Origin: a virus
Lineage: Duplodnaviria > Caudoviricetes
Reading direction: 5' to 3' (one strand)
Virus record (IMG/VR): IMGVR_UViG_3300008110_000717
Coordinates: 1-62,154 of that record
Length of the DNA stretch: 62,154 bases
Numbering within the stretch: the first letter of the stretch is position 1; each line of letters starts with the position of its first letter. The translations under genes and the position numbers were made by a program. Below the pieces are notes generated by a model that did not search any database, was not told the origin of the DNA, and was given only the letters and a program-made list of their open reading frames with translations. Below, piece after piece: positions 35,927-58,682 of this stretch.

Positions 35927-36122
35927 CGTCTTCGTCGCCTTTCTGTTGTGCTTCTACAAGGTCAAGTAAATGTCGCTCTGCAAGGGCAAGACCTTGTATA
36001 ACCCCACAGAGTTTTTGATACGTGGCGTAGTCACTACAGATGCCGCCTGCCATGTCATCTGTGTACTCGTTCATGTCTTTGCGTATTTTGTCGCGCAGTA
36101 CGCTTGCGAAGTTGTCCGTCAT
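35841..36122 (-). CDS. Small head-module hypothetical protein
   Basis: DYATYQKLCGVIQGL; overlaps the portal stop. Confidence 0.6.
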   Translation of the reverse strand: MTDNFASVLRDKIRKDMNEYTDDMAGGICSDYATYQKLCGVIQGLALAERHLLDLVEAQQKGDEDDERSTFTSGGSNAGTNSAARRTQRGNLY

Positions 36123-38608
36123 TTTTCAGGGTTTCCCTTCGGTTGATTTTTTCCGCTTGATTGGCGAATACTCTGGATGTGTTGTACCGATGCTTGTCTG
36201 CGTTGTAGTTCAATTCGTTCTTTTTCCCGCATTAGCTCAATACCCATACGAGCGCCTTCACGCTCATCTTGCGCTTCCAATTTGGCTTTGGATTCTTGCG
36301 CTTGTAGTTGCAGACGTTGTTTCTCCAAGTCCAATCTGTCGGCTTGGGCTGTTGCATCAACAGCGAGCTTCTTCTCTTTAATAGCAAGTTCAGCTTGTTT
36401 CAACTGCATCTCTTGTTGCTGCAACTGTACTAACGGGTCTTGTGCTTGTTGTTGTGCTTGTTGCTGCGCAACTTGTGCTTGATTCTGCTGTAGTACTTGT
36501 TGTGCGGCTTGAGCCATCATGCCTGATAAGGCTGTTTCCATTTCTGGAGATAGCTCTTCTGCTTCAGGAGGTAATGGCATACCCAACTGCTGCTCGATCT
36601 TCTGACGATACGCATACGCTACGTGTTCTGAAACGTGCGCTGCTAATGCCGCCATAATTTGCTGTGCTTTGGGGTTTTGTCCTACCAACTGTTGAATTAC
36701 TGGGTCTTGTGCTGCGGTCATGTGCACCTTAATGTGCGATTCATGATCTTGATAAAAGAACGCTTTCACTGGCTCACAGCGCAAAAGCGACATGTTCTCA
36801 GACACAGGGTCTTTTGGTTTCATATCATCTTCTAGCGGTACAAGCTTTTCTGCGTTCTTAATACCCAGCACATTTAACATCGAGCGGTGTAGTTCTGGCA
36901 GGTTGTAGATGTCTGGTGCCATCTGTGCCATTTGAATGACTGCCTGATACTGAACAACACGCTGCGACATCGTGGCCGCATTCGGGTCCGACACGGGGAT
37001 TAAATCAACCTTGTCGTAATCCTCCTGCTTGGCTTTCTTTGTGCCGTACTCTGGATCGTATTCGTACTTAGGGTCTGTGTAATCACGAATAATTTCTTTA
37101 ATTAATTTGAACTCACGCTTTAGCGTGTAGTGCATACGTGCTTGCACTGCCGTCATTACTTTAAGCTGACGTTCAAGAATAGCTAGTGTAGAACCCACAG
37201 GCGCATTTGCCGACATATCGGATACTTTCATATCCGCAGTCGCTGCAAACCGACGGCCTTCGTCAACAATTGTATTGAGTAAGTTATATAGCGTGGTGCT
37301 TGGTTCTTTGTATGGCAGCGGAAGTATAGAGTCCCGTATGCTGCCTGACGCTACATCAACGTCTCGCCATTCACCCGGAGCAATCGGAGTATCGTCGCCT
37401 TTGATCCTAAGTCCGCGTGATTTAAGACCGCCGGGTAGATTGGACAGTGTGCCTGCATCAACGAGTTGCCTCATCAGGCTCGTCGCATTTTTTGCAAAAC
37501 CGCCTATTAAGTGAAACAAACCAAAGCCATACGCACCAAAGCCGGGGATGTACTGGTAGTGCACGAAGTGATGACGCTTGAGTTTTAACTTGTCGTCTTC
37601 TCTCCAGTTTCTACGGATAGACAGTATGGTGTTTGTGCCTTTAATTAAAGTCACCACGTACGGCAGCGCAATCCCTGTAGGCTCGCCATCGTCATCTTTA
37701 TCGCAGTACTTATCTTCTTCAATGACCAAGTCAGCGTGGCACTCATATAACGTGTAACGGTCGTCGTTTAAGTCCGAGAACCCACTTTCTTTATCTTTGG
37801 CTTTCTGAATTTCTTCGGTTGCTTTGGATGGGTCTGGCAACTCCATGTCGATATAAAACCCACCCTGCTGCAACTTAATAATGTCGTTCTTGGTTTTGCG
37901 CATGACGTGCGTTAAGCGGTAGCACGTATCTAAGTCCGTAGTGCCATAAGGCAAAATCACATCTTCTGCTGGCACGAACATCGCCACTTGACGGCCAATG
38001 TTTGGATCAAAATACACTTTCTTAAAGGCTGAACCTGTAGCTGGCAAACTCCACAACATGCGCTCATGTTCTGGGCGATACTCCGTCATGACTTCAGTAA
38101 GCTCAAAGTTCATGTCTTCTTCTACGCGTATCGCGGCTTCTTTTACCTCTGGCGTTTCTTTACCAATAATTTTGGTACGCACCGGCCCTTGGGCTGGGAA
38201 TGTCTCAGTTATCGACTCAGATTGAAAGCGCACAACTGCTTCGGTTAACATCGGATGGAACACGCCACACGCACCAGACCACGGCTCGGTTCGTTCCTCA
38301 ATCTGCAAACCTAAAAGCTTTAAGCCATTAACATAGGCTTTCTCCCATTCTTTACGGGAGCCTTTGTCGTTAGTAATATCAAAATCCAACTCGCCAGCAA
38401 GCTCCGACAAAAAGCCATCTTCAAGCGTTTCTGCCAAATTTTCGTTAAATTCTTCCGAAGCTTCGGTTTTGGCAAGTTCTATTTCAAACCCCGGACCCGA
38501 GATGCTTACCGCTTCGGGATCAACAATCTCGATCTCAATTGCTTCTTCCCCGTCTGGTATTGATGCTAATCCTTGGGGGGCTTGATATAGCCCTTTGTCG
38601 ATAGCCAT
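36119..38608 (-). CDS. Portal protein
   Basis: 829 aa after terL; GSAFKKVYFD, Gln-rich C-terminal barrel as in P22-type portals. Confidence 0.85.
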   Translation of the reverse strand: MAIDKGLYQAPQGLASIPDGEEAIEIEIVDPEAVSISGPGFEIELAKTEASEEFNENLAETLEDGFLSELAGELDFDITNDKGSRKEWEKAYVNGLKLLGLQIEERTEPWSGACGVFHPMLTEAVVRFQSESITETFPAQGPVRTKIIGKETPEVKEAAIRVEEDMNFELTEVMTEYRPEHERMLWSLPATGSAFKKVYFDPNIGRQVAMFVPAEDVILPYGTTDLDTCYRLTHVMRKTKNDIIKLQQGGFYIDMELPDPSKATEEIQKAKDKESGFSDLNDDRYTLYECHADLVIEEDKYCDKDDDGEPTGIALPYVVTLIKGTNTILSIRRNWREDDKLKLKRHHFVHYQYIPGFGAYGFGLFHLIGGFAKNATSLMRQLVDAGTLSNLPGGLKSRGLRIKGDDTPIAPGEWRDVDVASGSIRDSILPLPYKEPSTTLYNLLNTIVDEGRRFAATADMKVSDMSANAPVGSTLAILERQLKVMTAVQARMHYTLKREFKLIKEIIRDYTDPKYEYDPEYGTKKAKQEDYDKVDLIPVSDPNAATMSQRVVQYQAVIQMAQMAPDIYNLPELHRSMLNVLGIKNAEKLVPLEDDMKPKDPVSENMSLLRCEPVKAFFYQDHESHIKVHMTAAQDPVIQQLVGQNPKAQQIMAALAAHVSEHVAYAYRQKIEQQLGMPLPPEAEELSPEMETALSGMMAQAAQQVLQQNQAQVAQQQAQQQAQDPLVQLQQQEMQLKQAELAIKEKKLAVDATAQADRLDLEKQRLQLQAQESKAKLEAQDEREGARMGIELMREKERIELQRRQASVQHIQSIRQSSGKNQPKGNPEK

Positions 38609-38617
38609 GTTGGCTCC

Positions 38618-40144
38618 TTAATAGTAAGCCGCTCTGCGCGGTGAATAAATTTTGTCGTCCCGATCATCTGATTCAAGCGAAATAAAGCCCCCTTGCCTAA
38701 AGCGCAGGAGTGCTTGAGAAGTCGTGTCTACGTAATCGTCGTGTTCGCCAACCGGGAAGGCTGCTACTTCCTCAATTACTTCTCGTGCCCATCGGGTGTC
38801 TGGTGCCCAGACTTTACCAGAAGTAAATAGGTCTGCAATAGCGTTGACTCGGACGATTTTGTCGTTTCCTCTACTGGGGGAGAACTCTTGGACGGGGATG
38901 CCCATTGCTCTGATTTCTTGGATGAGGGGTGCGCCTGCGGCCTTTTTCTCCACAACGAAGGCATCCGGTTCCCACTCCTTATAGTGTCGTAGCGCAACTT
39001 GTTTTAATTCTGGAAAGTCCATACGGTCTTTAAACGCGTCCAGCAGAATCACTTGCGGCTCGTCCCGTTCTTCCTCATTGTAAAACACTCCCCACGTTGT
39101 GCAAGCAGAATAGTCAGCGGTAGTCTTAGCCTCAAACGCCGTATCCCAACTCTGGATGATGTACTCACATTTCGGTGGATCGTCTTTCTCCCAGATGCGC
39201 CAGTGCCGTCTGGCAATAATTGCCGAGGCTTCCGAGGTAGGCTGCTGCATGTACTGGGCGTTCCAGTACCTAGGGTCAATCGACGCTTTGGTTTTCTTTA
39301 AGGCTTCCAACGGCCACTGCTCCGGCCAGAGCGACTTCTCGTTCTCTTCGTCCTGATTAAGGATGGCTGGCAGTTCAACGATTTCCCACGGTATAGCTTC
39401 GGGGTTTCGCGTTTGGTAATCTACTAAGCGCCCCGTTAGGTCGAGCAACGACCACCTAGTCATAATAACTATGATTGCCCCGCCGGGCATGAGACGCTGC
39501 AATGGGCCGGTTTGAAACCAAGACCACGCTGTATCGAAGGCCAATCGTGAATTTGACTTAACGTCCTGCTCAGAGTGAGGATCATCAATAACAAAAAGAT
39601 CAGCACCACGACCGGCAAGAGCACCGCCAACACCTGCGGCATAATATTGCCCCCCTGCGCCCGTAGACCATTTACCTGCTGCCTTCTGATCGTCGGCAAT
39701 GCGTGTGTGGGGAAATAAATCGTGGTACTCATCGGACTCAATTAAGTTACGGACTCGTCGTCCAAAATCTTCGGAAAGGCTGGCCGTGTGCGTTCCCATG
39801 ATGATCTTCTTGTCTGGAAACTTGCCAAGGAAATACGCTGGGAACAGGTAAGAGGAAAACTCCGACTTACCCATACGCGGTGCAATATTAATAATTACCC
39901 GCTTCTTCTCTCCCGCAATCACCGACTCAAATATCTTGGAGAGCTTCTTGTGGTGGGGGCCAATTTTAAATCCCGGATACACATGCGTTGCAAACCCAAG
40001 CATGGAATCTTGCCCAATGATCTTACTGGCTCTGGCTGCGCGTTCTTCCAAATCGGCCAGTAGTTCGGCTTTCTCTCTAGGGTTTAGGCTAGGCAATACG
40101 CGTTGAAGGGCTTTGATTTCTTCAGGACTCAGGACTGCTTTCAT
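38618..40144 (-). CDS. terL: Terminase large subunit
   Basis: Walker A APRMGKS, Walker B LFVIDD, nuclease QSWDTA and HDDYVD. Confidence 0.95.
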   Translation of the reverse strand: MKAVLSPEEIKALQRVLPSLNPREKAELLADLEERAARASKIIGQDSMLGFATHVYPGFKIGPHHKKLSKIFESVIAGEKKRVIINIAPRMGKSEFSSYLFPAYFLGKFPDKKIIMGTHTASLSEDFGRRVRNLIESDEYHDLFPHTRIADDQKAAGKWSTGAGGQYYAAGVGGALAGRGADLFVIDDPHSEQDVKSNSRLAFDTAWSWFQTGPLQRLMPGGAIIVIMTRWSLLDLTGRLVDYQTRNPEAIPWEIVELPAILNQDEENEKSLWPEQWPLEALKKTKASIDPRYWNAQYMQQPTSEASAIIARRHWRIWEKDDPPKCEYIIQSWDTAFEAKTTADYSACTTWGVFYNEEERDEPQVILLDAFKDRMDFPELKQVALRHYKEWEPDAFVVEKKAAGAPLIQEIRAMGIPVQEFSPSRGNDKIVRVNAIADLFTSGKVWAPDTRWAREVIEEVAAFPVGEHDDYVDTTSQALLRFRQGGFISLESDDRDDKIYSPRRAAYY

Positions 40145-40751
40145 GCTCCTCCTGATCCATGTCTAAAGTTTGACCAGTGTCTTTTACATTCTCAATAATG
40201 TCTGTGACATCAGTAATCTCCACGATCTTAGCCATTTTCCCCAGCTTCTCTTTGATCCTAGCGTCCAGTTCTGAATCGGACAGCTCTGTCTTTTTGATCT
40301 CGATCTTCTCGGTGAACAAGCCAACCTCTGTGACCTTACCCAAAAGGGCCAAGGCTTTTAGTCTGACGGACGCGGTGGGATGCGTTGTCTCTTCCAAAAT
40401 TTTAGCTACCGTGTAACCACGGAGTTCTTTAGCGCGTTCTACGAATTCCCAATCGTACGCGGTTAACATGCCTACCAGATGTTGTACTGCTGCCGGAGTT
40501 TTTACTTGGGCAAGCGCAGCATGGGTATGATCTGGGTTTTGTGCAGTTATTAAACTGCTAAATGTTTCACGTGAAGCTTTAGCGTCTAGCTCGGTTGCTA
40601 CTTCGTCGCCTACAGCGCCGAGTTCTTTAAGCCAGTCGGTCGTACTTATCTTAGCGTCCACGGCAGTAGCCGGGTCGGATTTTTCAAGCGAGACAAAGCC
40701 CGAGGATGTGCCCTCGACTTCGGGTTCAAAATCAATCAGGTGTTCTAACAT
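40122..40751 (-). CDS. terS: Terminase small subunit (putative)
   Basis: Directly upstream of terL; RLKALALLGK..GLFTEK motif; ATG 40751 preferred. Confidence 0.65.
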   Translation of the reverse strand: MLEHLIDFEPEVEGTSSGFVSLEKSDPATAVDAKISTTDWLKELGAVGDEVATELDAKASRETFSSLITAQNPDHTHAALAQVKTPAAVQHLVGMLTAYDWEFVERAKELRGYTVAKILEETTHPTASVRLKALALLGKVTEVGLFTEKIEIKKTELSDSELDARIKEKLGKMAKIVEITDVTDIIENVKDTGQTLDMDQEEHESSPES

Positions 40752-40762
40752 CGCGTTGGCCC

Positions 40763-40791
40763 TTGCAACCACGTTGGACGCAGTGTATATT
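40763..40791 (+). promoter_or_regulatory. Sigma70-like promoter for the sRNA
   Basis: TTGCAA-17 nt-TATATT. Confidence 0.6.
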
Positions 40792-40810
40792 TAACTTTGC
40801 AAGTGTGCAA
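40782..40810 (-). promoter_or_regulatory. Sigma70-like promoter for the late (terS) operon
   Basis: TTGCAC-17 nt-TACACT on the minus strand; -10 overlaps that of the sRNA promoter. Confidence 0.55.
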
Positions 40811-40884
40811 GCGGCAACGCTTACATTTGCTTCTCCTTCGCGTCAGCGAACTTTGTCCCTCAGTCACGGCTGGGGGATTTTTTT
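40798..40884 (+). ncRNA. Putative anti-RBS small RNA
   Basis: Promoter, GCAA-tetraloop hairpin, CATTTGCTTCTCCTT, short hairpin, then terminator stem plus T7. Confidence 0.65.
40856..40884 (+). terminator. Intrinsic terminator of the sRNA
   Basis: TCCCTCAGT-CACG-GCTGGGGGA (9 bp, 2 G:U) then TTTTTTT. Confidence 0.75.
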
Positions 40885-40893
40885 GTCTGTGTA

Positions 40894-40909
40894 TGTCTAA
40901 GTTTAGACA
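40894..40909. promoter_or_regulatory. Operator-like palindrome TGTCWA-N4-TWGACA
   Basis: TGTCTA-AGTT-TAGACA; related sites at 48418 and 56838. Confidence 0.55.
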
Positions 40910-41031
40910 AGGTGTTTGAGATTTTGTAGAAAATAATGTGGGGTAGGGCATATTGTATAAGTGATAACTGAAGTATTGAGCATGGTTGTGAAACAGTGTT
41001 CAGTATGGACGACCCCCCCTGTCTTCTATTT

Positions 41032-41062
41032 GGGTGGGTGGGGGTAGGGTGGGGGTCAGGGG
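41032..41062 (+). other. G-tract cluster (G-quadruplex potential) between the two arms
   Basis: GGG-T-GGG-T-GGGGG-TA-GGG-T-GGGGG-TCA-GGGG. Confidence 0.6.
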
Positions 41063-41146
41063 ATAGCCAAATCAGGTCAGAAATAGGGTCGAAATGACCC
41101 GAATATGGCTTAGATACTAGGGTTTAAGCCGATCAAAAAGGGGTAA

Positions 41147-41155
41147 TGCTATAGT
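41147..41155 (+). promoter_or_regulatory. Extended -10 early promoter
   Basis: TGcTATAGT followed by a 5' hairpin (41161-41177) upstream of the first early gene. Confidence 0.45.
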
Positions 41156-41210
41156 GAAATTGTGCTGATTCGGCACATAACTAACCCAAAGGACCCAAAG
41201 GAGCTACACC

Positions 41211-41594
41211 ATGACTACATCAACACAATCCAAAGTTAATACCATCGTTGCTGCATATCTCAAGCAATCAGACACGTTAGTCATCGAGCTACACTCGCTC
41301 GGATTAGATACGGCAGAGCTACAGCGCCCCTACGTCATTAAAGCGGTATGCCAAGCCACCACGAACGGCAAAGGATGGTCGGATGAATGGCGCGGCGTTG
41401 TTGCGCTTGACTCGAAGCATCCACAGTACGAACTACTGAAAACCAAAGTGCGCCGAGTAATGGCTGCATTGAAGGGCGACGAACCGGCAGCGTCGAGCGG
41501 CAAGAAGGAAGTCGATGCCGTTGCGAAGCTATTGGCTGCATTCAACAAAATGTCGAAAGCCGAGCAAAAGAAGTTTTTGAAAGCTGTAGCGTAA
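41211..41594 (+). CDS. First early protein, hypothetical
   Basis: SD AAAGGAG; 127 aa. Confidence 0.75.
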   Translation: MTTSTQSKVNTIVAAYLKQSDTLVIELHSLGLDTAELQRPYVIKAVCQATTNGKGWSDEWRGVVALDSKHPQYELLKTKVRRVMAALKGDEPAASSGKKEVDAVAKLLAAFNKMSKAEQKKFLKAVA

Positions 41595-41690
41595 TCATCG
41601 GGTCACGTTGACCCGATGGAATTTCAAGGCGGTGCAAGCGGGGAGCCGAGCCGTTGTTTCATTCCATGTCTAACCAAAGGAGATTTATCC

Positions 41691-41873
41691 ATGAATAGCC
41701 AAAAAATCATAGAGTTACTGCTAAACGGCGCGTATCACGAAGGAAACAAGTTCTTTCACCCAAGTTTTCGCAGAGGCTACCGAACAATGCGCGTCTCTGA
41801 CATTTCATTCCAAGCGGCACTAAAGAAACTCGGAGCGCAAGTAAAACTCAACAACGGCAAGTACTCAATCTAA
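41691..41873 (+). CDS. Early hypothetical protein
   Basis: TAACCAAAGGAG SD before ATG 41691 (MNSQKIIELL). Confidence 0.7.
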   Translation: MNSQKIIELLLNGAYHEGNKFFHPSFRRGYRTMRVSDISFQAALKKLGAQVKLNNGKYSI

Positions 41874-41889
41874 CCAAAGGAAAATCACC

Positions 41890-42159
41890 ATGCAAAACAC
41901 AAAATCAATCTTCTTTGTTGAAGTAACCGACACCTACGCAGGTGAAGCAAACTACTGCTGGGTGAAACGCTTCAAAGTTCATGCGTCTAGCTTCAAAGGC
42001 GCAATACGAAAAGTCAGTAGCGAAATGGGCTTATCCGCCCGCATCAACGGTGACTACGGTGACATGGCGCGTTATGACTTCAAAGGAACCGCGATCTGCG
42101 CTTTCGTTATGCCCTACGAAGATCAAGCCGAGCACTACTTAAACGTCAAATCAATCTAA
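41890..42159 (+). CDS. Early hypothetical protein
   Basis: TAACCAAAGGA SD; VTDTYAGEANYCWVKR motif. Confidence 0.75.
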   Translation: MQNTKSIFFVEVTDTYAGEANYCWVKRFKVHASSFKGAIRKVSSEMGLSARINGDYGDMARYDFKGTAICAFVMPYEDQAEHYLNVKSI

Positions 42160-42175
42160 CCAAAGGAGAATCATC

Positions 42176-42355
42176 ATGACCGAAAACCAAAAGCAATACA
42201 TAGCCGATATCGTTGGCTCAATAGTGGCAGGCATACTGCTAACCATCGCCCTAATCCATCTCATACCCGAAGGGATGTGGCTGTATCTCATCTGCCTTGT
42301 GTTCGGAACCGTCATCATCACCAACAAAATCAACCGCGCATTGAGAGGGAACTAA
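42176..42355 (+). CDS. Early two-TM membrane protein, 59 aa
   Basis: MTENQKQYIADIVGSIVAGILL...; TAACCAAAGGAG SD; not in the track. Confidence 0.7.
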   Translation: MTENQKQYIADIVGSIVAGILLTIALIHLIPEGMWLYLICLVFGTVIITNKINRALRGN

Positions 42356-42357
42356 TC

Positions 42358-42576
42358 ATGCTCAAACTAATCAGCAAAACCACAGGCAAAGAACTGCGCG
42401 TAGGTGAGGTAGTGCATGACTTCAGAAACGATGCGCACATACTGGTCGATGCCAGACCGCCGCACAAGCCAAGCAGCGAAGGCTTTGTAACCTTGCGTTC
42501 AATGAACGAACACGCCTTCACACATGAGTACTACGCAGGGGTGATCGACGCGAAGTGGGAAAGCGGGTCAAGCTGA
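42358..42576 (+). CDS. Early hypothetical protein
   Basis: MLKLISKTTG..RPPHKPSSEGFV; SD GAGGG. Confidence 0.65.
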   Translation: MLKLISKTTGKELRVGEVVHDFRNDAHILVDARPPHKPSSEGFVTLRSMNEHAFTHEYYAGVIDAKWESGSS

Positions 42577-42599
42577 CCCGTTTTTTACAAAATCTCGAG

Positions 42600-42887
42600 G
42601 TATCCAAGACTACACGCCTTGGCCCGTTTTTTGGACAGTCGAAACCCGCGCCAGTCCTAGAATCCAGCACTGGTATCCGTTTTATATATCTTTTTAAATA
42701 AATATATATATAGGGAAATATTTATATATAAGGGTGGGCAGTCGGCTGTCCGTAAGACAAGGTTGGCAGGTTTGTGCTTTAGTATTTTTTAAAAAAGATA
42801 TATAAACCGGATACCACCCCTAAAACCTATGCTATGCTTGGCTTTTAGCTGTCCAAAAAACTGCCCGAAACGTGTAGTCATGGATAC
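42600..42887. other. Putative replication origin: nested inverted repeats around an AT-rich core
   Basis: Three arm pairs with symmetric 9- and 32-nt spacers; TATATA-rich centre; non-coding. Confidence 0.6.
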
Positions 42888-42922
42888 TTACAAGATAGTT
42901 AACAGCAGAAAGGCGTGTAATC

Positions 42923-43642
42923 ATGTACAAATATTTAGCCACCGCACGAGTGAGCAAACTTGACAGTGTATTGAAACAAAAGTTCCCTAATAAAAAGCTG
43001 CGTGATTCTGAGCGCGACCGCATCATGGCTGCAAAAAAATCTAATCGCTCAGAAAAAATAAGGCGTACGCACCACAAAAAATTGTGGCAAGCGTTAGTGC
43101 GTGACTTGGTTTACGAAAAGAACAACGTGCGCATGGGTATGCGGTATCAATCCGTACAAAATCTCGAGTCCAGACAGTTTGCCTTTGAAGCGTACCTCGC
43201 AGTGATCGAGAAGGTAGAGACGTTAATCAAAGATCACGCCGAGAGTGGCGTCACACCCAGCGAGTACGCCCGAAAGAAAGACCTGCCCAACAACGGGCTG
43301 CATTGGACGGATTGGGTTCCTGCCCATATCAAAACCAAGATCATTACCCTATTCAACGCCATCCCACATACGCCGAGGGCTAAACGCAAGCTACCTTTCC
43401 CACGAACGAGGCGACCGGACAAAGGCAACCCGTTAGTCAACCGCTTACGCCAGCGCACCGAGAAGGAGTTAGCGTTTGAAGTGCGTGACCTACGGGCAGA
43501 CCCAGCCAACCCCGTGAGATTGAAACGGGTAGCCCAGATGCGCGAGGCACTGCGAATCATGGAGACAATGAAACCGAACGACGTCATACCGCACACATGG
43601 CACGGGTTATTTATACAAGGGGCAATTACACGAGTTACTTAA
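42923..43642 (+). CDS. Basic hypothetical protein next to the putative ori
   Basis: 239 aa, Arg/Lys-rich, HWTDWVP and PHTWHGL motifs. Confidence 0.65.
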   Translation: MYKYLATARVSKLDSVLKQKFPNKKLRDSERDRIMAAKKSNRSEKIRRTHHKKLWQALVRDLVYEKNNVRMGMRYQSVQNLESRQFAFEAYLAVIEKVETLIKDHAESGVTPSEYARKKDLPNNGLHWTDWVPAHIKTKIITLFNAIPHTPRAKRKLPFPRTRRPDKGNPLVNRLRQRTEKELAFEVRDLRADPANPVRLKRVAQMREALRIMETMKPNDVIPHTWHGLFIQGAITRVT

Positions 43643-43694
43643 AAACGGGTCAGCCTGACCCGCTAATCAGGCACAACAACCAAAGGAGAAGTAA

Positions 43695-43880
43695 ATGAAC
43701 CAAGACCAACAACACGCAGCAGCAATACACATGAAGAAAGTAGGCGGCGGGTTTGCAAGCCGTCTAGCCGAAGCGTACCTGTACGCTGACTCATGGAACC
43801 AGCGCCGTATCTATGAGGCGTTCGAGGATTTGTTTGAGAGGCACTTACCAACCAAAGGAGAAGCAAATGAAGTCATGTAG
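43695..43880 (+). CDS. Early hypothetical protein
   Basis: GGGFASRLAEAYLYADSWN; AAGGAGAAGTAAATG start. Confidence 0.7.
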   Translation: MNQDQQHAAAIHMKKVGGGFASRLAEAYLYADSWNQRRIYEAFEDLFERHLPTKGEANEVM

Positions 43881-44061
43881 AAATTGCGAACGGTCTGTGC
43901 ATGATGGGTATTTCCATGTGCGTTTGCTATGCAACGCCAAAAGCATGGTAGTCGTGCCGTTTCAATCTGGGGTAGCAGAAGAAAACAAAACGCATGACAG
44001 GCAAGCCCAGATGTATGCGGCAACGTGTGAATACTATGAACGGGTCAGCCTGACCCGATAA
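43867..44061 (+). CDS. Early Cys-containing hypothetical protein
   Basis: MKSCRNC...C...C; AAGGAGAAGCAAATG start. Confidence 0.65.
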   Translation: MKSCRNCERSVHDGYFHVRLLCNAKSMVVVPFQSGVAEENKTHDRQAQMYAATCEYYERVSLTR

Positions 44062-44077
44062 CCAAAGGAGAAAAAGA

Positions 44078-44329
44078 ATGAAATATTACATAGGCAAGAT
44101 CGAGGAATTCAACGACGGTTTTGAGTACTCGACAGAGTACGTATTCAAAACCGAAGGCGACCCACATGAGTACGCCGACGAGACAGCAAGGGGATGGCGT
44201 GGTGAGGGTAATTGGGACGCTGACCAAGAAGGTTGGTGGTGTGAGCACACGCTGATCTTTAACGATGGGTATGAAGAAGTATCAGAAGAAGAGTTTGAAG
44301 TGTTGTCCAAGTACATAGTCGTTCTATAA
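44078..44329 (+). CDS. Early highly acidic protein
   Basis: Glu/Asp- and aromatic-rich; strong SD. Confidence 0.7.
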   Translation: MKYYIGKIEEFNDGFEYSTEYVFKTEGDPHEYADETARGWRGEGNWDADQEGWWCEHTLIFNDGYEEVSEEEFEVLSKYIVVL

Positions 44330-44343
44330 CTAAGGAGAAGCAA

Positions 44344-44739
44344 ATGAAAACCAATGAACTAACAGGCGCTGCCCTTGACTGGGCAGTCGCGCAATGCGAG
44401 GGGTTAAACCCAATACTAGGCAGTTCGTTTGAGCGTGGTCATGCAGACGGGCTTGATCGGTATCCGTTCGTGTACTTACATGAGCCAATGAAACACAACA
44501 TCGCAGCACCTGCGTTTTATACAGGGTACACGCCATCAGTAAGTTGGTGGATAGGCGGGGAGATCATCGAGCGCGAACGCATAGAGCTTGTGCCTGATGA
44601 GATATGGAACGCATACAAACAAGATCAACACATACCCAACACCGGCATGACCCCATTGATTGCAGCCATGCGCTGCTACGTGGCAAGCAAACTAGGTGAC
44701 GATGTGGAAGTACCAGAAGAAGTAGTACTTGATAAATAA
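44344..44739 (+). CDS. NinX/DUF2591-like phage protein
   Basis: LTGAALDWAVA...PLIAAMRCYVASKLG. Confidence 0.75.
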   Translation: MKTNELTGAALDWAVAQCEGLNPILGSSFERGHADGLDRYPFVYLHEPMKHNIAAPAFYTGYTPSVSWWIGGEIIERERIELVPDEIWNAYKQDQHIPNTGMTPLIAAMRCYVASKLGDDVEVPEEVVLDK

Positions 44740-44776
44740 ACGGGTCAGCCTGACCCGATAACCAAAGGAGAAGCAC

Positions 44777-46186
44777 ATGAACACATACGAATACAACGGC
44801 GTTGACCGTTGGGATTGGATGATGGCAGCAGCCCAAGCGATACAGCGTGTGTACTACACCCATCTATCAGAAAAGCATCATCGCAGTTGGCACGTCAGGG
44901 AACAGGAACGCTACAGCATGCACCCCGTCATTCAGAAAGCAGTCATGCTTGCACCGCCAGCCGACTGGCATCAGTTAGTTCTTGAGTGGCCGCATGTCAG
45001 CGTATCAAACGACACAAGCAAGATCGCCTACACCCGCAACGAGCAGCATGGCATCGACAACAGGCAGACGGCAACGTCAGTCGGTAAGTACATAACGCGA
45101 CACTTCCCTACCCTTAAAGACCATGAGGTACGTGACTTGTGCGGTATGTACGGCGCGTCAACGTTCAAGATCACACATGACATGGAGCAGATGATCGACC
45201 TGCTACAGCGCGGCCCGAAGTCGTGCATGGTGTTTGACGAGAATGATTCCGACGATAGATGCGACGAGGGACATCCGTATCGGGTCTATGCGCCAGGTCT
45301 GGGCTGGGGTCTGGCAGTGCGCATGGTAGGCAATGGCGTCGATGGTCGGGCATTGGTCAACGAGAATGACAAGTCGTTCGTGCGTAGCTATCGGCGTAAT
45401 GAGAACGGCTACTCAGGGGCAGACGAGGACTTGCAGTCATGGCTCAACGATCAGGGGTACAGGCACGTCAGGGGTTGGCAGTTAGGCACACGCTTGCGCT
45501 ACATACCGTTCAGAAAGTACGGGCAAGACATACCCACCGCACCATATATCGACGGACAGAATCGCAGCGTCAGGGTTGACGAGTACACCAAGACGCTAAT
45601 CATTGACGACGATGGTGAGTGGTTGTGTGACATGACCAACGGCGAGGCGCAAGAACAAAACGCATGTGTATGTCCTGACTGTAATGATCGTGTCCATGAG
45701 GATGAGATGAACTCTACGTATGACGGCAACGGCGAGTCGGTATGTAACTCATGCCTTGAGAACGACTACTACTACGTGCATGGGCGTAATGAATACGAGT
45801 ATTACGTACACCGCGATGATATGGTCGAGGTCAATGGCAACTACTACCACGATGAGTTCTTAGCAGACAACGACATCGTTGAGCTGTATGACGGTGAGTA
45901 TGAGGAGCGTGACAACACCGTGTGTATTGACGGCGACTACTACATGCACGACGACGAGCGGATTGTGCATTGCGAGGACACCGATGATTACGCGTTGATC
46001 GATGACTGCTGGCAATGCTTTGTGTCTGACAAGTGGTATGCAAGTGACGATCCGATACGCTTGTGCTGCATCGACAGCCAAGACGAGATCACCGTACACG
46101 AGGATGAGATACACCGCTACGAGTCCGACATTGCTTCATACGACCCCATCATTGACGCTTGCCTTTTCCAAACTGAAGGAGAATAA
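44777..46186 (+). CDS. Hypothetical protein with CxxC and Asp/Glu/Tyr-rich repeats
   Basis: GPKSCM, GRALV, PYID, CPDC..CNSC, acidic repeat tail. Confidence 0.7.
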   Translation: MNTYEYNGVDRWDWMMAAAQAIQRVYYTHLSEKHHRSWHVREQERYSMHPVIQKAVMLAPPADWHQLVLEWPHVSVSNDTSKIAYTRNEQHGIDNRQTATSVGKYITRHFPTLKDHEVRDLCGMYGASTFKITHDMEQMIDLLQRGPKSCMVFDENDSDDRCDEGHPYRVYAPGLGWGLAVRMVGNGVDGRALVNENDKSFVRSYRRNENGYSGADEDLQSWLNDQGYRHVRGWQLGTRLRYIPFRKYGQDIPTAPYIDGQNRSVRVDEYTKTLIIDDDGEWLCDMTNGEAQEQNACVCPDCNDRVHEDEMNSTYDGNGESVCNSCLENDYYYVHGRNEYEYYVHRDDMVEVNGNYYHDEFLADNDIVELYDGEYEERDNTVCIDGDYYMHDDERIVHCEDTDDYALIDDCWQCFVSDKWYASDDPIRLCCIDSQDEITVHEDEIHRYESDIASYDPIIDACLFQTEGE

Positions 46187-47293: not shown

Positions 47294-47335
47294 ACAATAA
47301 TGGGGTCAGGTTGACCCCTTTTTAAGGAGAAGCAA

Positions 47336-47572
47336 ATGACTAGAAAGAAATCACGTTACACAGAAGCAGCCATAACCAAACGTCGGCTTGAGGATATACG
47401 AGCAGGCGAGGTACATGAGGCACTACACGCAGCGTTTTTTAATAGGTCGCCCGTGAACGTGAGAGAGGTACGCGACCGCTTAGACCCCGCGTTGAAAGCA
47501 ATGGAGATACGGGAGATATTAAAAGTAGACTTAACCAACGGCGGAGACGGTGATGACCCCACTTATAACTGA
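47336..47572 (+). CDS. Hypothetical protein
   Basis: AAGGAGAAGCAAATG start. Confidence 0.65.
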   Translation: MTRKKSRYTEAAITKRRLEDIRAGEVHEALHAAFFNRSPVNVREVRDRLDPALKAMEIREILKVDLTNGGDGDDPTYN

Positions 47573-48329
47573 GATGTCCGGTGCGATAAAAGAAGATGCG
47601 TTGAACTATAAATGGTTTGATGTATCTGAAGCAAAAAGAGAGGAACTAGTAGAAGACACCGCGCTTGATTTATTGCGACAACCTTTTCCGTTCGAGCAGT
47701 GTGCTGTTGTGGGGTTGGATGTAGATGGAAATAAGTATGCGTTCTTTGTGCACAAAGCAATGGCAGAGGTGGAGAACGGCACTACGCAAGAGTGCATTCG
47801 CATGAGAAGTTTTTGTAAATTTATGAATGACCACTTATTTCAACTCAACCCCTCACTAACGATTGACATATCAGGAGGGCACCTAAACAAAAGCGAAGCA
47901 ACCATTGATGATGTGCGGGTAGCCATTGATGGGAAGTTTCTTAGTGAGCACCCAGAGTTTCTTAATAACCAAGAGATGATGAACGAAGCTGTTACCGTCT
48001 CTATGAACCTATTAGTTGAATGGTTGCAGGTATTGGATAAGAAAAATATAGAGGTGCACACGCCTATTAAACGATCTAACCATGCCAAGCGTATAAGGCA
48101 GGGAAAGAAACCGTTCTATGATTGGCACACGGTAACTATTGAACCATCTAAGCCAGCAGCACCACACAAGGGCGGTACACACGCAAGCCCCAGACTACAT
48201 GAGGTACGTGGGCATTGGGTAGTCAACCGCAACGGCAAACGCTTTTGGAGACGACCGCATGAACGCGGGGATGCGGCACTAGGTATTTCGTTCCACGACT
48301 ATAAAATTAAAGGAGAAGCACATGGATGA
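47550..48329 (+). CDS. Conserved phage protein
   Basis: C-terminal HASPRLHEVRGHW..FWRRPHERGD motif. Confidence 0.65.
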   Translation: MMTPLITEMSGAIKEDALNYKWFDVSEAKREELVEDTALDLLRQPFPFEQCAVVGLDVDGNKYAFFVHKAMAEVENGTTQECIRMRSFCKFMNDHLFQLNPSLTIDISGGHLNKSEATIDDVRVAIDGKFLSEHPEFLNNQEMMNEAVTVSMNLLVEWLQVLDKKNIEVHTPIKRSNHAKRIRQGKKPFYDWHTVTIEPSKPAAPHKGGTHASPRLHEVRGHWVVNRNGKRFWRRPHERGDAALGISFHDYKIKGEAHG

Positions 48330-48681: not shown

Positions 48682-49281
48682 ATGAGTGATTTGCGCACAG
48701 CAATAGTAAACGCACTAAACAAAATAGAAACGGAGAAGCAGATGCAGAACAACGAATTGAAAGACACCATCACCGAGTGGGCGAACGACGATAAACAAGA
48801 ACCAGATGTACGCTCCACTACATTCAAGCCAACCAACAACGTAACACGCGAAACGTTTAACGCAGTGCGAGACAATCCGGGTAAAACAAACGGGCAGCTA
48901 GTACGCTTAATGCAAGCTAGAGGATTCAACCCGTCATCCGTTGGCTCACTACTAACGCAGATGGTACGGCAAGGATTGATACGTCGTGATGACGAAGGGA
49001 AGTTCTCAGCGCAGGTAGCAGAGTACGCCCCATTAAAAAGTCCAGCAGCTATAGCAAAGCAGAAGAAAATCGTACACCTTAATCGGTCCAAGCGCCCCTA
49101 CGTGAAAGCAGCTAGGCAGAGCACCAAGGAAGGCATCGCAGCGTTGGGTACGCATACTACCGCGCCTGTGGCTACCCCTGTCGCTGCCTTTGACCCAGAG
49201 CAAGTGCTGTCAACACTTTCTTTCCCGCAGGTGTTGACGTTGTATAAAAAAATTAAAACTCTTTTGGGAGAAGCCGCATGA
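48682..49281 (+). CDS. Putative winged-helix DNA-binding protein
   Basis: VRDNPG...SVGSLLTQMVRQGLI. Confidence 0.55.
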   Translation: MSDLRTAIVNALNKIETEKQMQNNELKDTITEWANDDKQEPDVRSTTFKPTNNVTRETFNAVRDNPGKTNGQLVRLMQARGFNPSSVGSLLTQMVRQGLIRRDDEGKFSAQVAEYAPLKSPAAIAKQKKIVHLNRSKRPYVKAARQSTKEGIAALGTHTTAPVATPVAAFDPEQVLSTLSFPQVLTLYKKIKTLLGEAA

Positions 49282-53716: not shown

Positions 53717-53729
53717 TAAGGAGAGGCAA

Positions 53730-54059
53730 ATGGAAAACATTAAAAAGAAACAAACAGAATTCCCACGCAGTATTCGTGTGGGAAAGAAACGCTACTCAAT
53801 TGACGTAGTGGAATCAATGATTCAGCGTGGCGATATGGCACGTGTGCACTACGATAAAAACTCAATAGAGATAGGCAAGCGCAGTAACAAAACAGGACGT
53901 AAGTTTGGCAGGAAACAAATGCACGATTCGTTCTGGCATGAGCTGGTACACGCAATACTCTATGACATGGATGCCCATGCACTAAACAAGAACGAGAAGT
54001 TTGTAACTGAGTTTGCTTCCCGTCTATCAGAAGCAATTGACTCTGCGAGGTTTGAATAA
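53730..54059 (+). CDS. Small HExxH metallopeptidase-like protein
   Basis: FWHELVHAIL..NEKFV; AAGGAGAGGCAAATG start. Confidence 0.65.
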   Translation: MENIKKKQTEFPRSIRVGKKRYSIDVVESMIQRGDMARVHYDKNSIEIGKRSNKTGRKFGRKQMHDSFWHELVHAILYDMDAHALNKNEKFVTEFASRLSEAIDSARFE

Positions 54060-55092: not shown

Positions 55093-55253
55093 CATTTGAA
55101 CAGTGGTGGGAGTCCCTCAGTGAGTCAGAGAAAAAGTTTTTAGGTATCCACAACGCTCGCTATTGTTGGTTAGAGGGGCACAAGTGTGGATACAGTAAAG
55201 GATATAAAGATGCGAAAGACATCATAACTGGAGAAGTAGATGCAAATAATTGA
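55089..55253 (+). CDS. Small hypothetical protein, 54 aa
   Basis: MTFEQWWES...; ATGA-coupled to the HNH gene. Confidence 0.55.
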   Translation: MTFEQWWESLSESEKKFLGIHNARYCWLEGHKCGYSKGYKDAKDIITGEVDANN

Positions 55254-56853: not shown

Positions 56854-56873
56854 AACAATAATAGGAGAAGCAG

Positions 56874-57287
56874 ATGTCCGATACAGTCACAGAGCTTATT
56901 CCAATGGATAAGCTCGCAAAGATTTATCGCAAGATCAAGGAAGAAATTGATGTGCTGACAAAGGAGTACGACACCAAAGTCGAACTGCTCAAAGCACAGC
57001 AAGACGAACTTCGTTTTGCAATGAAAGACCAGATGAAAGCCCTCGGGGTCAAGTCTGTTAACACCACCTTCGGCACCGTGTCTATGATTAACAAGACGCG
57101 TTACAGCACAGATGATTGGGACTCGTTCAAGAAGTTTGTTGTTATGAACGACGTTGTTGATCTTCTGGAAAAGCGTATTGCTCAAACCAATATGGCTCGG
57201 TTCCTCGAAGAAAATCCCGGCAGTGTACCGCCCGGATTAAATGCCTTTTCTGATTTTGAAATCAGAGTTACTAAACCCTCTAAGTGA
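56874..57287 (+). CDS. Conserved replication-module protein
   Basis: Coiled coil followed by SVNTTFGTV..DWDSF..LLEKRI..PPGLN. Confidence 0.7.
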   Translation: MSDTVTELIPMDKLAKIYRKIKEEIDVLTKEYDTKVELLKAQQDELRFAMKDQMKALGVKSVNTTFGTVSMINKTRYSTDDWDSFKKFVVMNDVVDLLEKRIAQTNMARFLEENPGSVPPGLNAFSDFEIRVTKPSK

Positions 57288-58408: not shown

Positions 58409-58421
58409 ATAGGAGAAGCAA

Positions 58422-58682
58422 ATGTTTGATGGAAAAACATACAACGCAGAACGCGACAAAGATCGCTTAAAGACACAACTGTTTAATGTCTGGCGGCTAA
58501 TGAAAGACAGCCGTTGGAGAACGTTGGAGCAGATTTCAGAGAAGGTTGGTTGTCCTGAAGCAAGTGTAAGTGCAAGGCTTCGGGATTTCCGTAAACGCCA
58601 GTTCGGTAGCCATACAGTTGAACGCGAGTATGTGCGCCGAGGTTTATTCAAGTATCGACTTATACCCAATGAAGAACACTAA
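58422..58682 (+). CDS. Winged-HTH protein
   Basis: WRTLEQI...EASVSARLRDFRK..G. Confidence 0.7.
   Translation: MFDGKTYNAERDKDRLKTQLFNVWRLMKDSRWRTLEQISEKVGCPEASVSARLRDFRKRQFGSHTVEREYVRRGLFKYRLIPNEEH

What the first reader, a model, noticed from the sequence alone, without database searches (positions are those of the whole stretch)
40798..40884. Candidate phage sRNA antisense to the SD-plus-start motif of many of its own early and replication genes
Seen: a self-contained plus-strand unit. Promoter TTGCAA-17-TATATT; hairpin 1 (40799-40830) with a GCAA tetraloop; unpaired TTCTCC; small hairpin 40837-40850; terminator stem plus T7. Bases 40824-40838 (CATTTGCTTCTCCTT) are the exact reverse complement of AAGGAGAAGCAAATG, found perfectly at gene starts 43867, 44344 and 47336. 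On the minus strand the same bases read SD-ATG-TAA, so they do not begin a real protein. The anti-SD part is exposed while the anti-AUG part is held in stem 1, which resembles a toehold for strand displacement. Inference: one trans-acting RNA silences translation of a whole regulon through a standardised RBS, acting as an early-to-late or dormancy switch. Known phage antisense RNAs (P1 C4, P4 CI, P22 sar, lambda OOP) act on one or a few targets.
Basis: partly seen in the sequence, partly recalled or inferred. Interest (0 to 1): 0.92.

Follow-up and report, generated by a model that had tools for sequence, protein, structure and literature searches.

The report
Conserved phage anti-ribosome-site small RNA
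An uncultured lake phage and hundreds of its relatives keep a gene for a small folded RNA whose open stretch mirrors the ribosome-binding sites of the phage's own early genes, so it probably turns their translation down, although the RNA itself has never been observed.

Summary
At 40763-40884 (+) there is a sigma70-type promoter, an RNA of about 86 nt with three hairpins, and a terminator with a T7 run. The unit sits directly upstream of terS in every relative that has enough DNA there. I looked at 121 unique versions with terS identity of 58-100%, plus a variant at 44%.

Structure and strand are supported. 24 of 26 pairs show compensatory changes. The + strand folds better than the - strand in 74 of 77 sequences.

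The exposed UCUCC linker together with the stem-held CAUUUGC is complementary to early-arm start regions and not to late ones. Counts with at least 12 contiguous pairs are 38 of 677 early and 0 of 367 late. In a second clade, at least 10 pairs occur in 85 of 302 early and 0 of 180 late. Seeds fit their own genome best (permutation p <= 3.5e-4).

The RNA shares a bidirectional promoter with the late operon (77 of 80).

The best reading is a trans-acting anti-RBS riboregulator of the phage's own early and replication genes. Expression and repression are not shown. The closest known family is Rfam RF02278, but the match is far below its cut-off. The scan has already noted this same family on other genomes.

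The parts
40763..40768 (+). -35 hexamer TTGCAA of the sRNA promoter
   Evidence: A TTGnnn hexamer lies 17-18 bp from the -10 in 75 of 78 unique relatives.
40786..40791 (+). -10 hexamer TATATT of the sRNA promoter
   Evidence: TA[TC]ANT is present in 78 of 79 unique relatives.
40782..40787 (-). -10 hexamer TACACT of the divergent (late, terS) promoter. It overlaps the sRNA -10 by 2 bp.
   Evidence: TAnnnT is offset by 4 bp from the + strand -10, with a TTG -35 at 17-18 bp, in 77 of 80 relatives. The implied starts lie 23 bp apart, a class named in PMC12825309.
40805..40810 (-). -35 hexamer TTGCAC of the late promoter. It lies inside the sRNA's conserved GYGCAA block.
   Evidence: TTGCAC 48, TTGCGC 23, TTGCAT 4, other 2.
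40798..40884 (+). Candidate small RNA, about 86 nt. The start is inferred from the -10 hexamer; the end is the T-run.
   Evidence: model R2: 82 bits, E 5e-14, the only hit in the window.
40799..40830 (+). Hairpin P1. The outer stem is 40799-807 with 40822-830. The inner stem is 40810-13 with 40818-21 and has a GCAA loop. The 3' strand of P1 is the CAUUUGC part of the seed.
   Evidence: Helix 1 is 94.8% paired and varies mostly through G-U pairs.
40824..40838 (+). Seed CAUUUGCUUCUCCUU, the reverse complement of AAGGAGAAGCAAAUG
   Evidence: The exact 13-mer CATTTGCTTCTCC is present in 39 of 79 unique relatives; the others differ by 1-4 changes.
40831..40836 (+). Single-stranded UUCUCC linker, the exposed anti-Shine-Dalgarno part
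   Evidence: mean unpaired probability is 0.86-0.99 for UCUCC across 77 sequences.
40837..40850 (+). Hairpin P2
   Evidence: All 5 pairs show changes on both sides across relatives.
40855..40884 (+). Intrinsic terminator: a 10-bp stem with three G-U pairs, then T7
   Evidence: The T-run is 5-10 long in 76 of 76 sequences and 7-8 long in 69.
40122..40751 (-). terS (small terminase-like, named for its position before terL; no Pfam family). Its true ATG is at 40751.
   Evidence: The ATG is conserved in 80 of 80 loci.
43683..43697 (+). Predicted target start region (61-aa gene), 1 mismatch to the 15-mer
   Evidence: ddG -12.2.
43855..43869 (+). Predicted target start region (64-aa gene), perfect 15-mer
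44332..44346 (+). Predicted target start region (NinX-like 131-aa gene), perfect 15-mer
   Evidence: ddG -13.9.
44765..44779 (+). Predicted target start region (469-aa gene), 1 mismatch
   Evidence: ddG -11.6.
47324..47338 (+). Predicted target start region (78-aa gene), perfect 15-mer, preceded by a T-run
   Evidence: ddG -14.1, the best of 84.
48310..48324 (+). Motif copy with 1 mismatch. I did not confirm a gene start here.
48730..48744 (+). Predicted target start region (179-aa gene), 2 mismatches
53718..53732 (+). Predicted target start region (109-aa gene), 1 mismatch
   Evidence: ddG -8.6.
55228..55242 (+). Predicted target start region of the SNF2-type helicase (GGAGAAGUAGAUG)
   Evidence: ddG -11.2.
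56862..56876 (+). Predicted target start region (137-aa gene, weak Gam-like hits), 2 mismatches
   Evidence: ddG -12.5.
58410..58424 (+). Predicted target start region (86-aa gene), 1 mismatch
   Evidence: ddG -10.8.

Best explanation
Positions 40798-40884 (+) encode a trans-acting small RNA.

Inferred from sequence, not seen as RNA: host sigma70 RNA polymerase starts it at one face of a bidirectional promoter whose other face starts the terS/late operon 23 bp away. It ends at an intrinsic terminator just before the early promoter.

Shown by folding and covariation: the RNA folds into three hairpins. Between hairpins 1 and 2 it exposes UUCUCCU, an anti-Shine-Dalgarno stretch. The adjoining CAUUUGC, which would pair with the spacer and the AUG, is held in hairpin 1 by a partly G-U-paired stem.

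Inferred mechanism: the exposed stretch docks on GGAGAA of early and replication mRNAs that carry the standard start region AAGGAGAAGCAAAUG. Pairing then spreads into hairpin 1, because the Watson-Crick duplex with the mRNA is stronger than the wobble-rich stem.

Inferred timing: because the RNA shares its -10 region with the late promoter, its output is tied to late transcription, either co-activated with it or competing with it. That would make it a translational brake on the early/replication class as the late phase sets in.
For: Gene reality
- The promoter, fold and terminator are present.
- The unit is in the same place in every relative with enough upstream DNA: 66 unique sequences, 76, 43 more in the second clade, 121 unique in all.
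- Model R1 finds it once, at the expected place, in 75 of 77 family sources.
- Covariation on A5: 91.9% of cells are paired against 72.5% in shuffles and 42-53% when slid. 24 of 26 pairs have changes on both sides, and 0 of 500 shuffles reach this.

Strand
- The + strand is more stable in 74 of 77 sequences (-35.1 against -28.8 kcal/mol, p 5e-14).
- Helix 1 varies mainly through G-U pairs.
- The T-run is always on the + strand.

Seed exposure
- CAUUUGC has an unpaired probability of 0.02-0.22 and UCUCC of 0.86-0.99 in 77 sequences.

Targets in the window
- The top 8 of 84 duplex energies are all early genes. At least 9 nt of contiguous complement occurs in 9 of 37 early and 0 of 47 late genes.
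- Co-folding of the whole RNA gives ddG <= -8 in 12 of 37 early and 0 of 47 late genes (p 3.8e-4).

Targets across the family
- At least 10 contiguous pairs with the genome's own seed: 65 of 677 early against 5 of 367 late. At least 12 pairs: 38 against 0.
- Second clade: 85 of 302 against 0 of 180.
- Complete relative G003: 14 of 51 against 2 of 45.

Co-variation
- With 15 representative genomes, the own seed gives -21.3 against -19.2 kcal/mol for others (0 of 20000 permutations). For the best target, p = 3.5e-4.
- Examples: L131 seed CGUUUACUUUUCUCC with GGAGAAAAGUAAAUG; L139 seed CGCUUGCUUUCUCC with GGAGAAAGCAAG.
- L080 clade: seed ...CUCCUUGA with UCAAGGAGAA. L145: CUCCUGU with ACAGGAGA.
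- CAU to CGU changes keep pairing with AUG through G-U but destroy a minus-strand ATG.

Bidirectional promoter
- Present in 77 of 80 relatives. The 23-bp class is described in PMC12825309 (passages read).
Against: - No RNA evidence at all. No RNA run holds the phage, and the contigs I laid do not cover the element.
- Repression is inferred from geometry only.
- The targeted genes are not stable by orthology (6 of 20 distinct orthologue start regions of the 469-aa gene bind at -17.8 kcal/mol or better).
- 8 of 31 relatives with at least 8 called early start regions have no match of 10 or more pairs in the DNA held.
- The own seed ranks first in only 6 of 15 genomes.
- Four single-genome seed-flank classes show no matching flank.
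- In complete relative G001 the co-folding contrast fails (11 of 35 against 8 of 60, p 0.39).
- Counts over relatives are not independent events.
- Alignment A5 was fitted to the model.
- Gene starts were called with a rule that prefers an SD, though the same rule was used in both arms.
- If the promoter is constitutive, the RNA would also be present early, which does not fit a simple switch.
Confidence: 0.55

Rival explanations
1. Host-directed anti-SD RNA. The exposed UCUCCU is a generic copy of the ribosome's mRNA-docking sequence. Its main job is to block strong Shine-Dalgarno sites of host mRNAs (host shut-off), as proposed for the 'toxic' CU-rich sRNAs of Betaproteobacteria. The match to phage early genes is secondary.
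For: - Only the generic anti-SD part is exposed.
- The best Rfam resemblance is RF02278, the Betaproteobacteria toxic sRNA. Its consensus starts with a single-stranded UGUCUCCUCC followed by a hairpin and a terminator.
- RF02278's single best hit in 5 of 5 relatives' genomes is this locus.
- One relative's contig is binned in a Limnohabitans (Burkholderiales) MAG.
Against: - The stem-held CAUUUGC and the flanks are conserved and change together with the phage's own start regions. A generic anti-SD does not need this.
- Late phage genes also have GGAG but lack the extended match.
- The host is unknown, so no host target could be tested.
Confidence: 0.15
2. Promoter by-product. The + face of the bidirectional promoter exists to set the strength or noise of the late promoter by competing for RNA polymerase. 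The short RNA is merely stopped quickly by a terminator so that it does not disturb the early promoter.
For: - The two -10 hexamers overlap and each -35 lies in the other's transcribed leader, in 77 of 80 relatives.
- Competition at such promoters is described in PMC12825309 (abstract and passages).
- The conserved GYGCAA block of the RNA doubles as the late promoter's -35.
Against: - It does not explain a near-invariant seed 4-48 nt away from that block.
- It does not explain a hairpin 2 kept by compensatory changes.
- It does not explain the seed's exposure or its match to early start regions.
Confidence: 0.1
3. Leader or attenuator of the early operon. Transcripts from this promoter normally stop at the terminator and read through into the early genes when a phage or host factor suppresses termination, as at lambda pR'-tR'.
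For: - It has the same orientation as the early arm.
- The terminator ends about 10 bp before the early promoter region.
Against: - A separate, well-conserved sigma70 early promoter (TTGACA-17-TATAAT in relatives) with its own palindromic operator follows the terminator at once.
- The terminator is strong (10 bp plus T7-8).
- Seed conservation is left unexplained.
Confidence: 0.05
4. Minus-strand coding or DNA signal. The motif is a real RBS for a leader mini-ORF or an N-terminal extension of terS. Alternatively, it is a DNA site for terminase (pac) or for a late activator.
For: - On the minus strand the window reads a perfect SD-ATG-TAA.
- The element lies next to terS.
Against: - The ATG is absent in 27 of 121 unique elements.
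- Where it is present, the ORF is 1 to 28 codons long. It is in frame and open to terS in only 9 of 95.
- The conserved late promoter would start the mRNA downstream of the motif, at about 40775.
- The distance from the late -35 to the seed varies from 4 to 48 nt. That does not suit a phased protein site.
- G-U asymmetry favours the + strand RNA.
Confidence: 0.04

Closest known systems
Betaproteobacteria 'toxic' small RNA (Rfam RF02278; ncS03, ncS05, ncS27 and ncS62 of Burkholderia cenocepacia, PMC4603805, passages read)
   Same: It has a single-stranded CU-rich anti-SD stretch (model consensus UGUCUCCUCC), then a hairpin, a U-rich linker and an intrinsic terminator. It is a short independent transcript. 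The model aligns end to end with 40830-40884. Its best hit in 5 of 5 relatives' genomes is this locus.
   Different: Scores are 18.5-26.7 bits against a cut-off of 50, so this is not a member. Here there is an extra 5' hairpin that holds an anti-spacer/anti-AUG extension. The gene is phage-borne and tied to the late promoter. Its seed co-varies with the phage's own start regions. According to PMC4603805, the function of the Burkholderia RNAs is unknown.
Multi-target phage-encoded sRNAs: lambda PreS (LPR1) and vibriophage VP882 VpdS (bioRxiv 10.1101/2024.10.31.621285, abstract and passages)
   Same: They are phage-encoded, trans-acting, seed-based RNAs with many targets that support the lytic programme.
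   Different: As described in the passages I read, those act mainly on host mRNAs (PreS) or on host and phage mRNAs (VpdS). No shared sequence was found (no Rfam match). Here the predicted regulon is a class of the phage's own genes marked by a standardised start region.
Phage immunity antisense RNAs: P1/P7 c4, P4 CI, P22 sar, lambda OOP (from my own knowledge; c4 = Rfam RF01695)
   Same: These are small phage RNAs that pair with ribosome-binding regions or leaders of phage genes.
   Different: They act on one operon, often in cis or after processing from the target's own transcript. No Rfam match to them appeared at E <= 10. Here there are about 10 dispersed targets and an independent gene.
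T4 RegA translational repressor (from my own knowledge)
   Same: A single phage factor shuts off translation of many early mRNAs by occupying their start regions.
   Different: RegA is a protein, whereas here the factor would be an RNA. No relation by descent is implied.
C/U-rich anti-SD sRNAs of bacteria (S. aureus RsaE and RNAIII, B. subtilis RoxS; from my own knowledge)
   Same: An unpaired C/U-rich motif pairs with SD sequences of several mRNAs.
   Different: Those are chromosomal and have no sequence relation to this RNA. They also lack a standardised target motif that extends through the start codon.

Membership tests
Rfam RF02278 Betaproteobacteria toxic sRNA | Covariance-model score at or above the gathering cut-off (50 bits) | tested here: not met
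   19.7 bits (E 0.037) on 40780-40900. It was not listed in the wider 1.7-kb search. Scores are 18.5-26.7 bits in 5 relatives' genomes.
Rfam RF02278 Betaproteobacteria toxic sRNA | Architecture: 5' single-stranded CU-rich stretch, hairpin, U-rich linker, terminator | tested here: met
   The alignment runs end to end (model positions 1-64) over the seed, P2 and the terminator. The additional 5' hairpin P1 is not part of that family.
Rfam RF02278 Betaproteobacteria toxic sRNA | Encoded in betaproteobacterial chromosomes | tested here: not met
   The gene lies in phage genomes. There is only a weak host hint: one short contig binned in a Limnohabitans MAG.
Phage c4 / CI-type immunity RNAs (Rfam RF01695 and kin) | Match to the family model | tested here: not met
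   No such family was listed at E <= 10.
Phage c4 / CI-type immunity RNAs (Rfam RF01695 and kin) | Processed from the transcript of the operon it controls; targets lie in that operon | tested here: not met
   It has its own promoter and terminator. Predicted targets are spread over 43.7-58.4 kb. Processing itself cannot be tested here.
Trans-acting base-pairing sRNA that blocks translation initiation | Independent transcription unit with a conserved promoter and intrinsic terminator | tested here: met
   78 of 79; 75 of 78; 76 of 76 with a T-run.
Trans-acting base-pairing sRNA that blocks translation initiation | Conserved, accessible seed complementary to the SD/start of several mRNAs | tested here: met
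Trans-acting base-pairing sRNA that blocks translation initiation | Seed and targets co-vary | tested here: inconclusive
   The overall signal is positive (p <= 3.5e-4) and there are several clear cases. However, targets are not orthologous, some lineages have no match, and the events are few and related.
Trans-acting base-pairing sRNA that blocks translation initiation | The RNA exists and represses its targets | not testable with these tools
   No RNA holder was listed, and the laid contigs do not cover the element.
Hfq-type sRNA (from my own knowledge of the module) | Terminator hairpin with a long U tail and a U-rich stretch just upstream | tested here: met
   The T-run is 7-8 long in 69 of 76 sequences. 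A U-rich linker precedes the terminator in the consensus. Hfq binding itself and the host are unknown.
Bidirectional sigma70 promoter, 23-bp class (PMC12825309) | Two -10 hexamers on opposite strands placed so that starts lie 23 bp apart, each with its own -35 | tested here: met
   77 of 80 relatives have an offset of 4 bp and a -35 TTG at 17-18 bp. One search gives the + face. The starts are inferred, not mapped.

The most novel reading that the evidence does not exclude
The late promoter of a very abundant lineage of freshwater phages fires backwards as well as forwards. The backward product is an RNA counterpart of T4 RegA: a single riboregulator with a built-in toehold (open anti-SD, stem-locked anti-AUG). 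It shuts off a whole class of early and replication genes, which the phage has marked with a standardised, co-evolving ribosome-binding site. The early-to-late switch is thus made at the level of translation and is hard-wired to late transcription.
Probability: 0.35. Interest if true: 0.85.

Novelty: new variant of a known kind. Interest (0 to 1): 0.72.

Why it matters
Temporal control in phages is usually explained by transcription factors, sigma factors, antiterminators or protein translational repressors. A conserved RNA that addresses a set of the phage's own genes through a shared, co-evolving start region would be a different and very compact solution.

It would also be a natural example of a toehold-gated anti-RBS regulator. 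It is present in at least several hundred contigs of an uncultured lake and marine phage lineage (584 of 596 and 305 of 317 candidate stretches encode the neighbouring terS).

It gives a directly testable model with defined parts: an 86-nt RNA, 15-nt targets and a 48-bp bidirectional promoter. It may also throw light on the unexplained 'toxic' CU-rich sRNAs of Betaproteobacteria.

No description of this family was found in Rfam 15 or in my four paper searches that ran.

Tried and rejected
RNA evidence. The look-up of sequencing runs listed no RNA holder. It gave four runs of one study with small word shares, guessed to be RNA. Their contigs, laid on 39500-43500, do not cover 40438-42045. Nothing can be concluded about expression.

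Close cultured relatives.
- blastn of 40300-41300 against GenBank phages gave no match.
- tblastn of terS gave no match.
- TerL is at most 53% identical to Pelagibacter phages HTVC027P/023P and phage DSL-LC04.
- Model R2 finds nothing in HTVC027P. In DSL-LC04 it finds only a 24-bit hit that is a plain terminator after the polymerase gene. I rejected that hit as a member.

Family size by pattern. Only 5 or 6 of the 80 listed loci scored with R2, so the pattern is too loose to count members.

Sequence-only alignments (A1, A2, A3) put hairpin 2 and the terminator out of register. I replaced them with a model built from three sequences that are in register (A4, R1) and its model-guided alignment (A5).

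The orthologous-target approach showed that targets are not kept by orthology. Small proteins had no detectable orthologues.

The minus-strand mini-ORF, a terS extension, and a DNA protein-binding site were each considered and rejected.

The hairpin looks like a terminator. I did not follow it further.

Host: two short MAG contigs only, which are no basis for naming a host.
Full report
WHAT THE WINDOW IS

The window is a complete virus record of 62,154 bp with terminal repeats. Genes on the minus strand from 114 to 40751 are structural and packaging genes. They include terL at 38618-40144 (Pfam Terminase_6N/6C) and a portal-sized ORF at 36119-38608.

Genes on the plus strand from 41211 to 62043 are early and replication genes. 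They include family A DNA polymerase, an SNF2-type helicase, a DUF927 primase-helicase and a NinX-like gene.

TerL is at most 53% identical to Pelagibacter phages HTVC027P/023P and to lake phage DSL-LC04. Neither the DNA nor terS has a match among GenBank phages. The finding lies in the 460-bp divergent gap between the two arms.

THE OBSERVATION

- The 87-nt stretch folds at -37.2 kcal/mol, 4.8 SD below its shuffles (0 of 200 fold as well).
- The 15-mer AAGGAGAAGCAAATG and its near copies occur 12 times against 0.16 expected. Ten lie at or near gene starts of the plus arm, one is in the late arm, and one is the element itself.

IT IS A CONSERVED GENE

terS has many relatives in IMG/VR. 583 of 596 candidate stretches encode a relative in one scan, 584 of 596 in another, and 305 of 317 in a scan started from a distant member.

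I saw only the best 80 loci of each scan. In every one with enough upstream DNA, the same unit sits just before terS on the opposite strand. That makes 121 unique versions.
- The exact 13-mer CATTTGCTTCTCC is in 39 of 79 unique loci of the first two scans. The rest differ by 1-4 changes. In two loci, L071 and L075, my regular expression picked the wrong place.
- A -10 hexamer TA[TC]ANT is present in 78 of 79. A TTG -35 lies at 17-18 bp in 75 of 78.
- All 76 extracted RNAs end in a GC stem and a T-run of 5-10, which is 7-8 long in 69.
- A relative with only 44% terS identity keeps the layout with a different CU-rich stretch, UCCCUUC.

STRUCTURE AND STRAND

Sequence-only alignments put the variable hairpins out of register. 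I therefore built a model from three sequences that are in register (A4, R1). It finds one hit at the expected place in 75 of 77 family sources. It missed L125 and L139, where the unit is visible by eye. It gave one stray weak hit.

On the resulting alignment of 76 sequences:
- 91.9% of cells are paired, against 72.5% in shuffles and 42-53% with partners slid.
- 24 of 26 pairs show changes on both sides.
- No shuffle out of 500 reaches the observed values.

That alignment was fitted to the model, which favours it. Independent single-sequence folding gives the same three-hairpin layout in very different sequences.

The plus strand folds better than its complement in 74 of 77 sequences. Helix 1 varies chiefly by G-U pairs. 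These would be A-C mismatches on the other strand.

Across 77 sequences, CAUUUGC is paired and UCUCC is open.

THE PROMOTER IS BIDIRECTIONAL

A minus-strand TAnnnT hexamer lies 4 bp from the plus-strand one, with a TTG -35 at 17-18 bp, in 77 of 80 relatives.

The implied starts are about 40798 (+) and 40775 (-), 23 bp apart. That is one of the common spacings of bacterial bidirectional promoters (PMC12825309, passages read).

Three things follow.
- The late mRNA probably starts downstream of the motif. The RNA is therefore not antisense to the terS leader, and the minus-strand 'SD-ATG-TAA' is not in that mRNA.
- The conserved GYGCAA block of the RNA doubles as the late -35.
- RNA output is coupled to late transcription.

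TARGETS

In the window:
- The eight best duplexes of 84 called genes are all early.
- At least 9 nt of contiguous complement occurs in 9 of 37 early and 0 of 47 late genes.
- Co-folding the whole RNA with -35 to +20 of each gene, which charges for opening hairpin 1, gives ddG <= -8 kcal/mol in 12 of 37 early and 0 of 47 late genes.

Across the first set of relatives, 65 of 677 early and 5 of 367 late start regions have at least 10 contiguous pairs with their own genome's seed. With at least 12 pairs the counts are 38 and 0. In the second clade the counts for at least 10 pairs are 85 of 302 and 0 of 180.

With co-folding, complete relative G003 reproduces the contrast (14 of 51 against 2 of 45). 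Complete relative G001 does not (11 of 35 against 8 of 60, p 0.39).

The first five early genes use another start-region class, AACCAAAGGAG. The predicted regulon is therefore the middle and replication part of the plus arm.

CO-VARIATION

A matrix of seeds against genomes for 15 representative genomes shows that the own seed binds own start regions better. The values are -21.3 against -19.2 kcal/mol (0 of 20000 permutations), and for the best target p = 3.5e-4. Even so, the own seed ranks first in only 6 of 15 genomes.

Clear cases:
- L131: CGUUUACUUUUCUCC with GGAGAAAAGUAAAUG.
- L139: CGCUUGCUUUCUCC with GGAGAAAGCAAG.
- L124/L125: a 1-nt insertion on both sides, leaving one C-A mismatch.
- L145: CUCCUGU with ACAGGAGA.
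- The L080 clade: CUCCUUGA with UCAAGGAGAA.

Counter-cases:
- Four single-genome flank classes have no matching flank.
- L096, L102, L114, L117, L118, L125, L133 and L145 have no match of 10 or more pairs in the DNA held.
- Orthologues of the 469-aa gene carry a good site in only 6 of 20 distinct cases.

The regulon is real as a pattern, but its membership is fluid.

RIVALS

A minus-strand mini-ORF or terS extension is rejected.
- The ATG is missing in 27 of 121 elements.
- ORF length runs from 1 to 28 codons.
- Only 9 of 95 are in frame and open to terS.

A phased DNA site is unlikely, because the seed lies 4-48 nt from the late -35.

An early-operon leader is unlikely, because a separate conserved early promoter with a palindromic operator follows the terminator.

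Two rivals remain open: a host-directed generic anti-SD RNA, and a promoter by-product. Neither explains the conserved, co-varying, stem-held extension.

COMPARISON WITH KNOWN FAMILIES

No Rfam family reaches its cut-off.

The best match is RF02278, the Betaproteobacteria toxic sRNA. It scores 19.7 bits against a cut-off of 50. Its consensus (single-stranded UGUCUCCUCC, hairpin, terminator) aligns end to end with the seed, hairpin 2 and the terminator. In 5 of 5 relatives' genomes its single best hit is this locus, at 18.5-26.7 bits. So this RNA works like that family and may be distantly related, but it is not a member by the family's own test.

Earlier follow-ups of this scan on other genomes of the same phage family reached the same comparison (e1-6240881, e1-6237450). 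I tested it here independently.

Multi-target phage sRNAs are now known: PreS of lambda and VpdS of VP882. The new points here are:
- a regulon made of the phage's own genes, marked by a standardised start region;
- the stem-locked seed extension;
- the wiring to the late promoter.

VERDICT

A real, conserved, undescribed phage small-RNA gene is very likely (about 0.9). That it represses the early/replication class by pairing over the SD and AUG is the best-supported mechanism (about 0.55). This remains inference until the RNA and its effect are seen.

Noticed in passing
window 40894-40909: Palindrome TGTCTAAGTTTAGACA lies right after the sRNA terminator. In relatives it reads TGTCYAAnnTTrGACA and overlaps the -35 of a near-consensus early promoter (TTGACA-17-TATAAT). 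It is a likely operator of the early promoter.
   Followed up: partly
window 41030-41057: A highly conserved G-rich block, GGGTGGGTGGGGGTAGGGTGGGGGTC, is nearly invariant in relatives down to 44% terS identity. It may be a packaging site, an origin element or a late-control site. It is unexplained.
   Followed up: no
window 41086-41100 and 41147-41155: A conserved GGGTCnnnnnGACCC hairpin is followed by an extended -10-like TGCTATAGT, just before the first early gene. This may be a second early promoter.
   Followed up: no
window 41670-44790: The first early genes use a second standard start region, AACCAAAGGAG(A), seen before the starts at 41691, 41890, 42176, 43695, 44078 and 44777. It is distinct from the AAGGAGAAGCAAATG class.
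   Followed up: partly
The whole 179-nt gap is not unusually structured (z 0.46). It looks like a terminator.
   Followed up: partly
L094 (relative), between the sRNA terminator and the early promoter: One relative carries an insertion of about 170 nt with a second GC hairpin and T-run between the sRNA and the early promoter.
   Followed up: no
L360:300-650 (-): A distant relative (44% terS, contig binned in an actinobacterial MAG) keeps the promoter, the GCAA-GCAG-UUGC hairpin, the terminator, the palindrome and the G-rich block. Its open stretch reads UCCCUUC instead of UUCUCCUU.
   Followed up: partly
window 46190-47293: A 367-aa early gene gives a weak Peptidase_M28 match (E 9.7e-5, just over the cut-off). 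That is unusual in a replication module.
   Followed up: no
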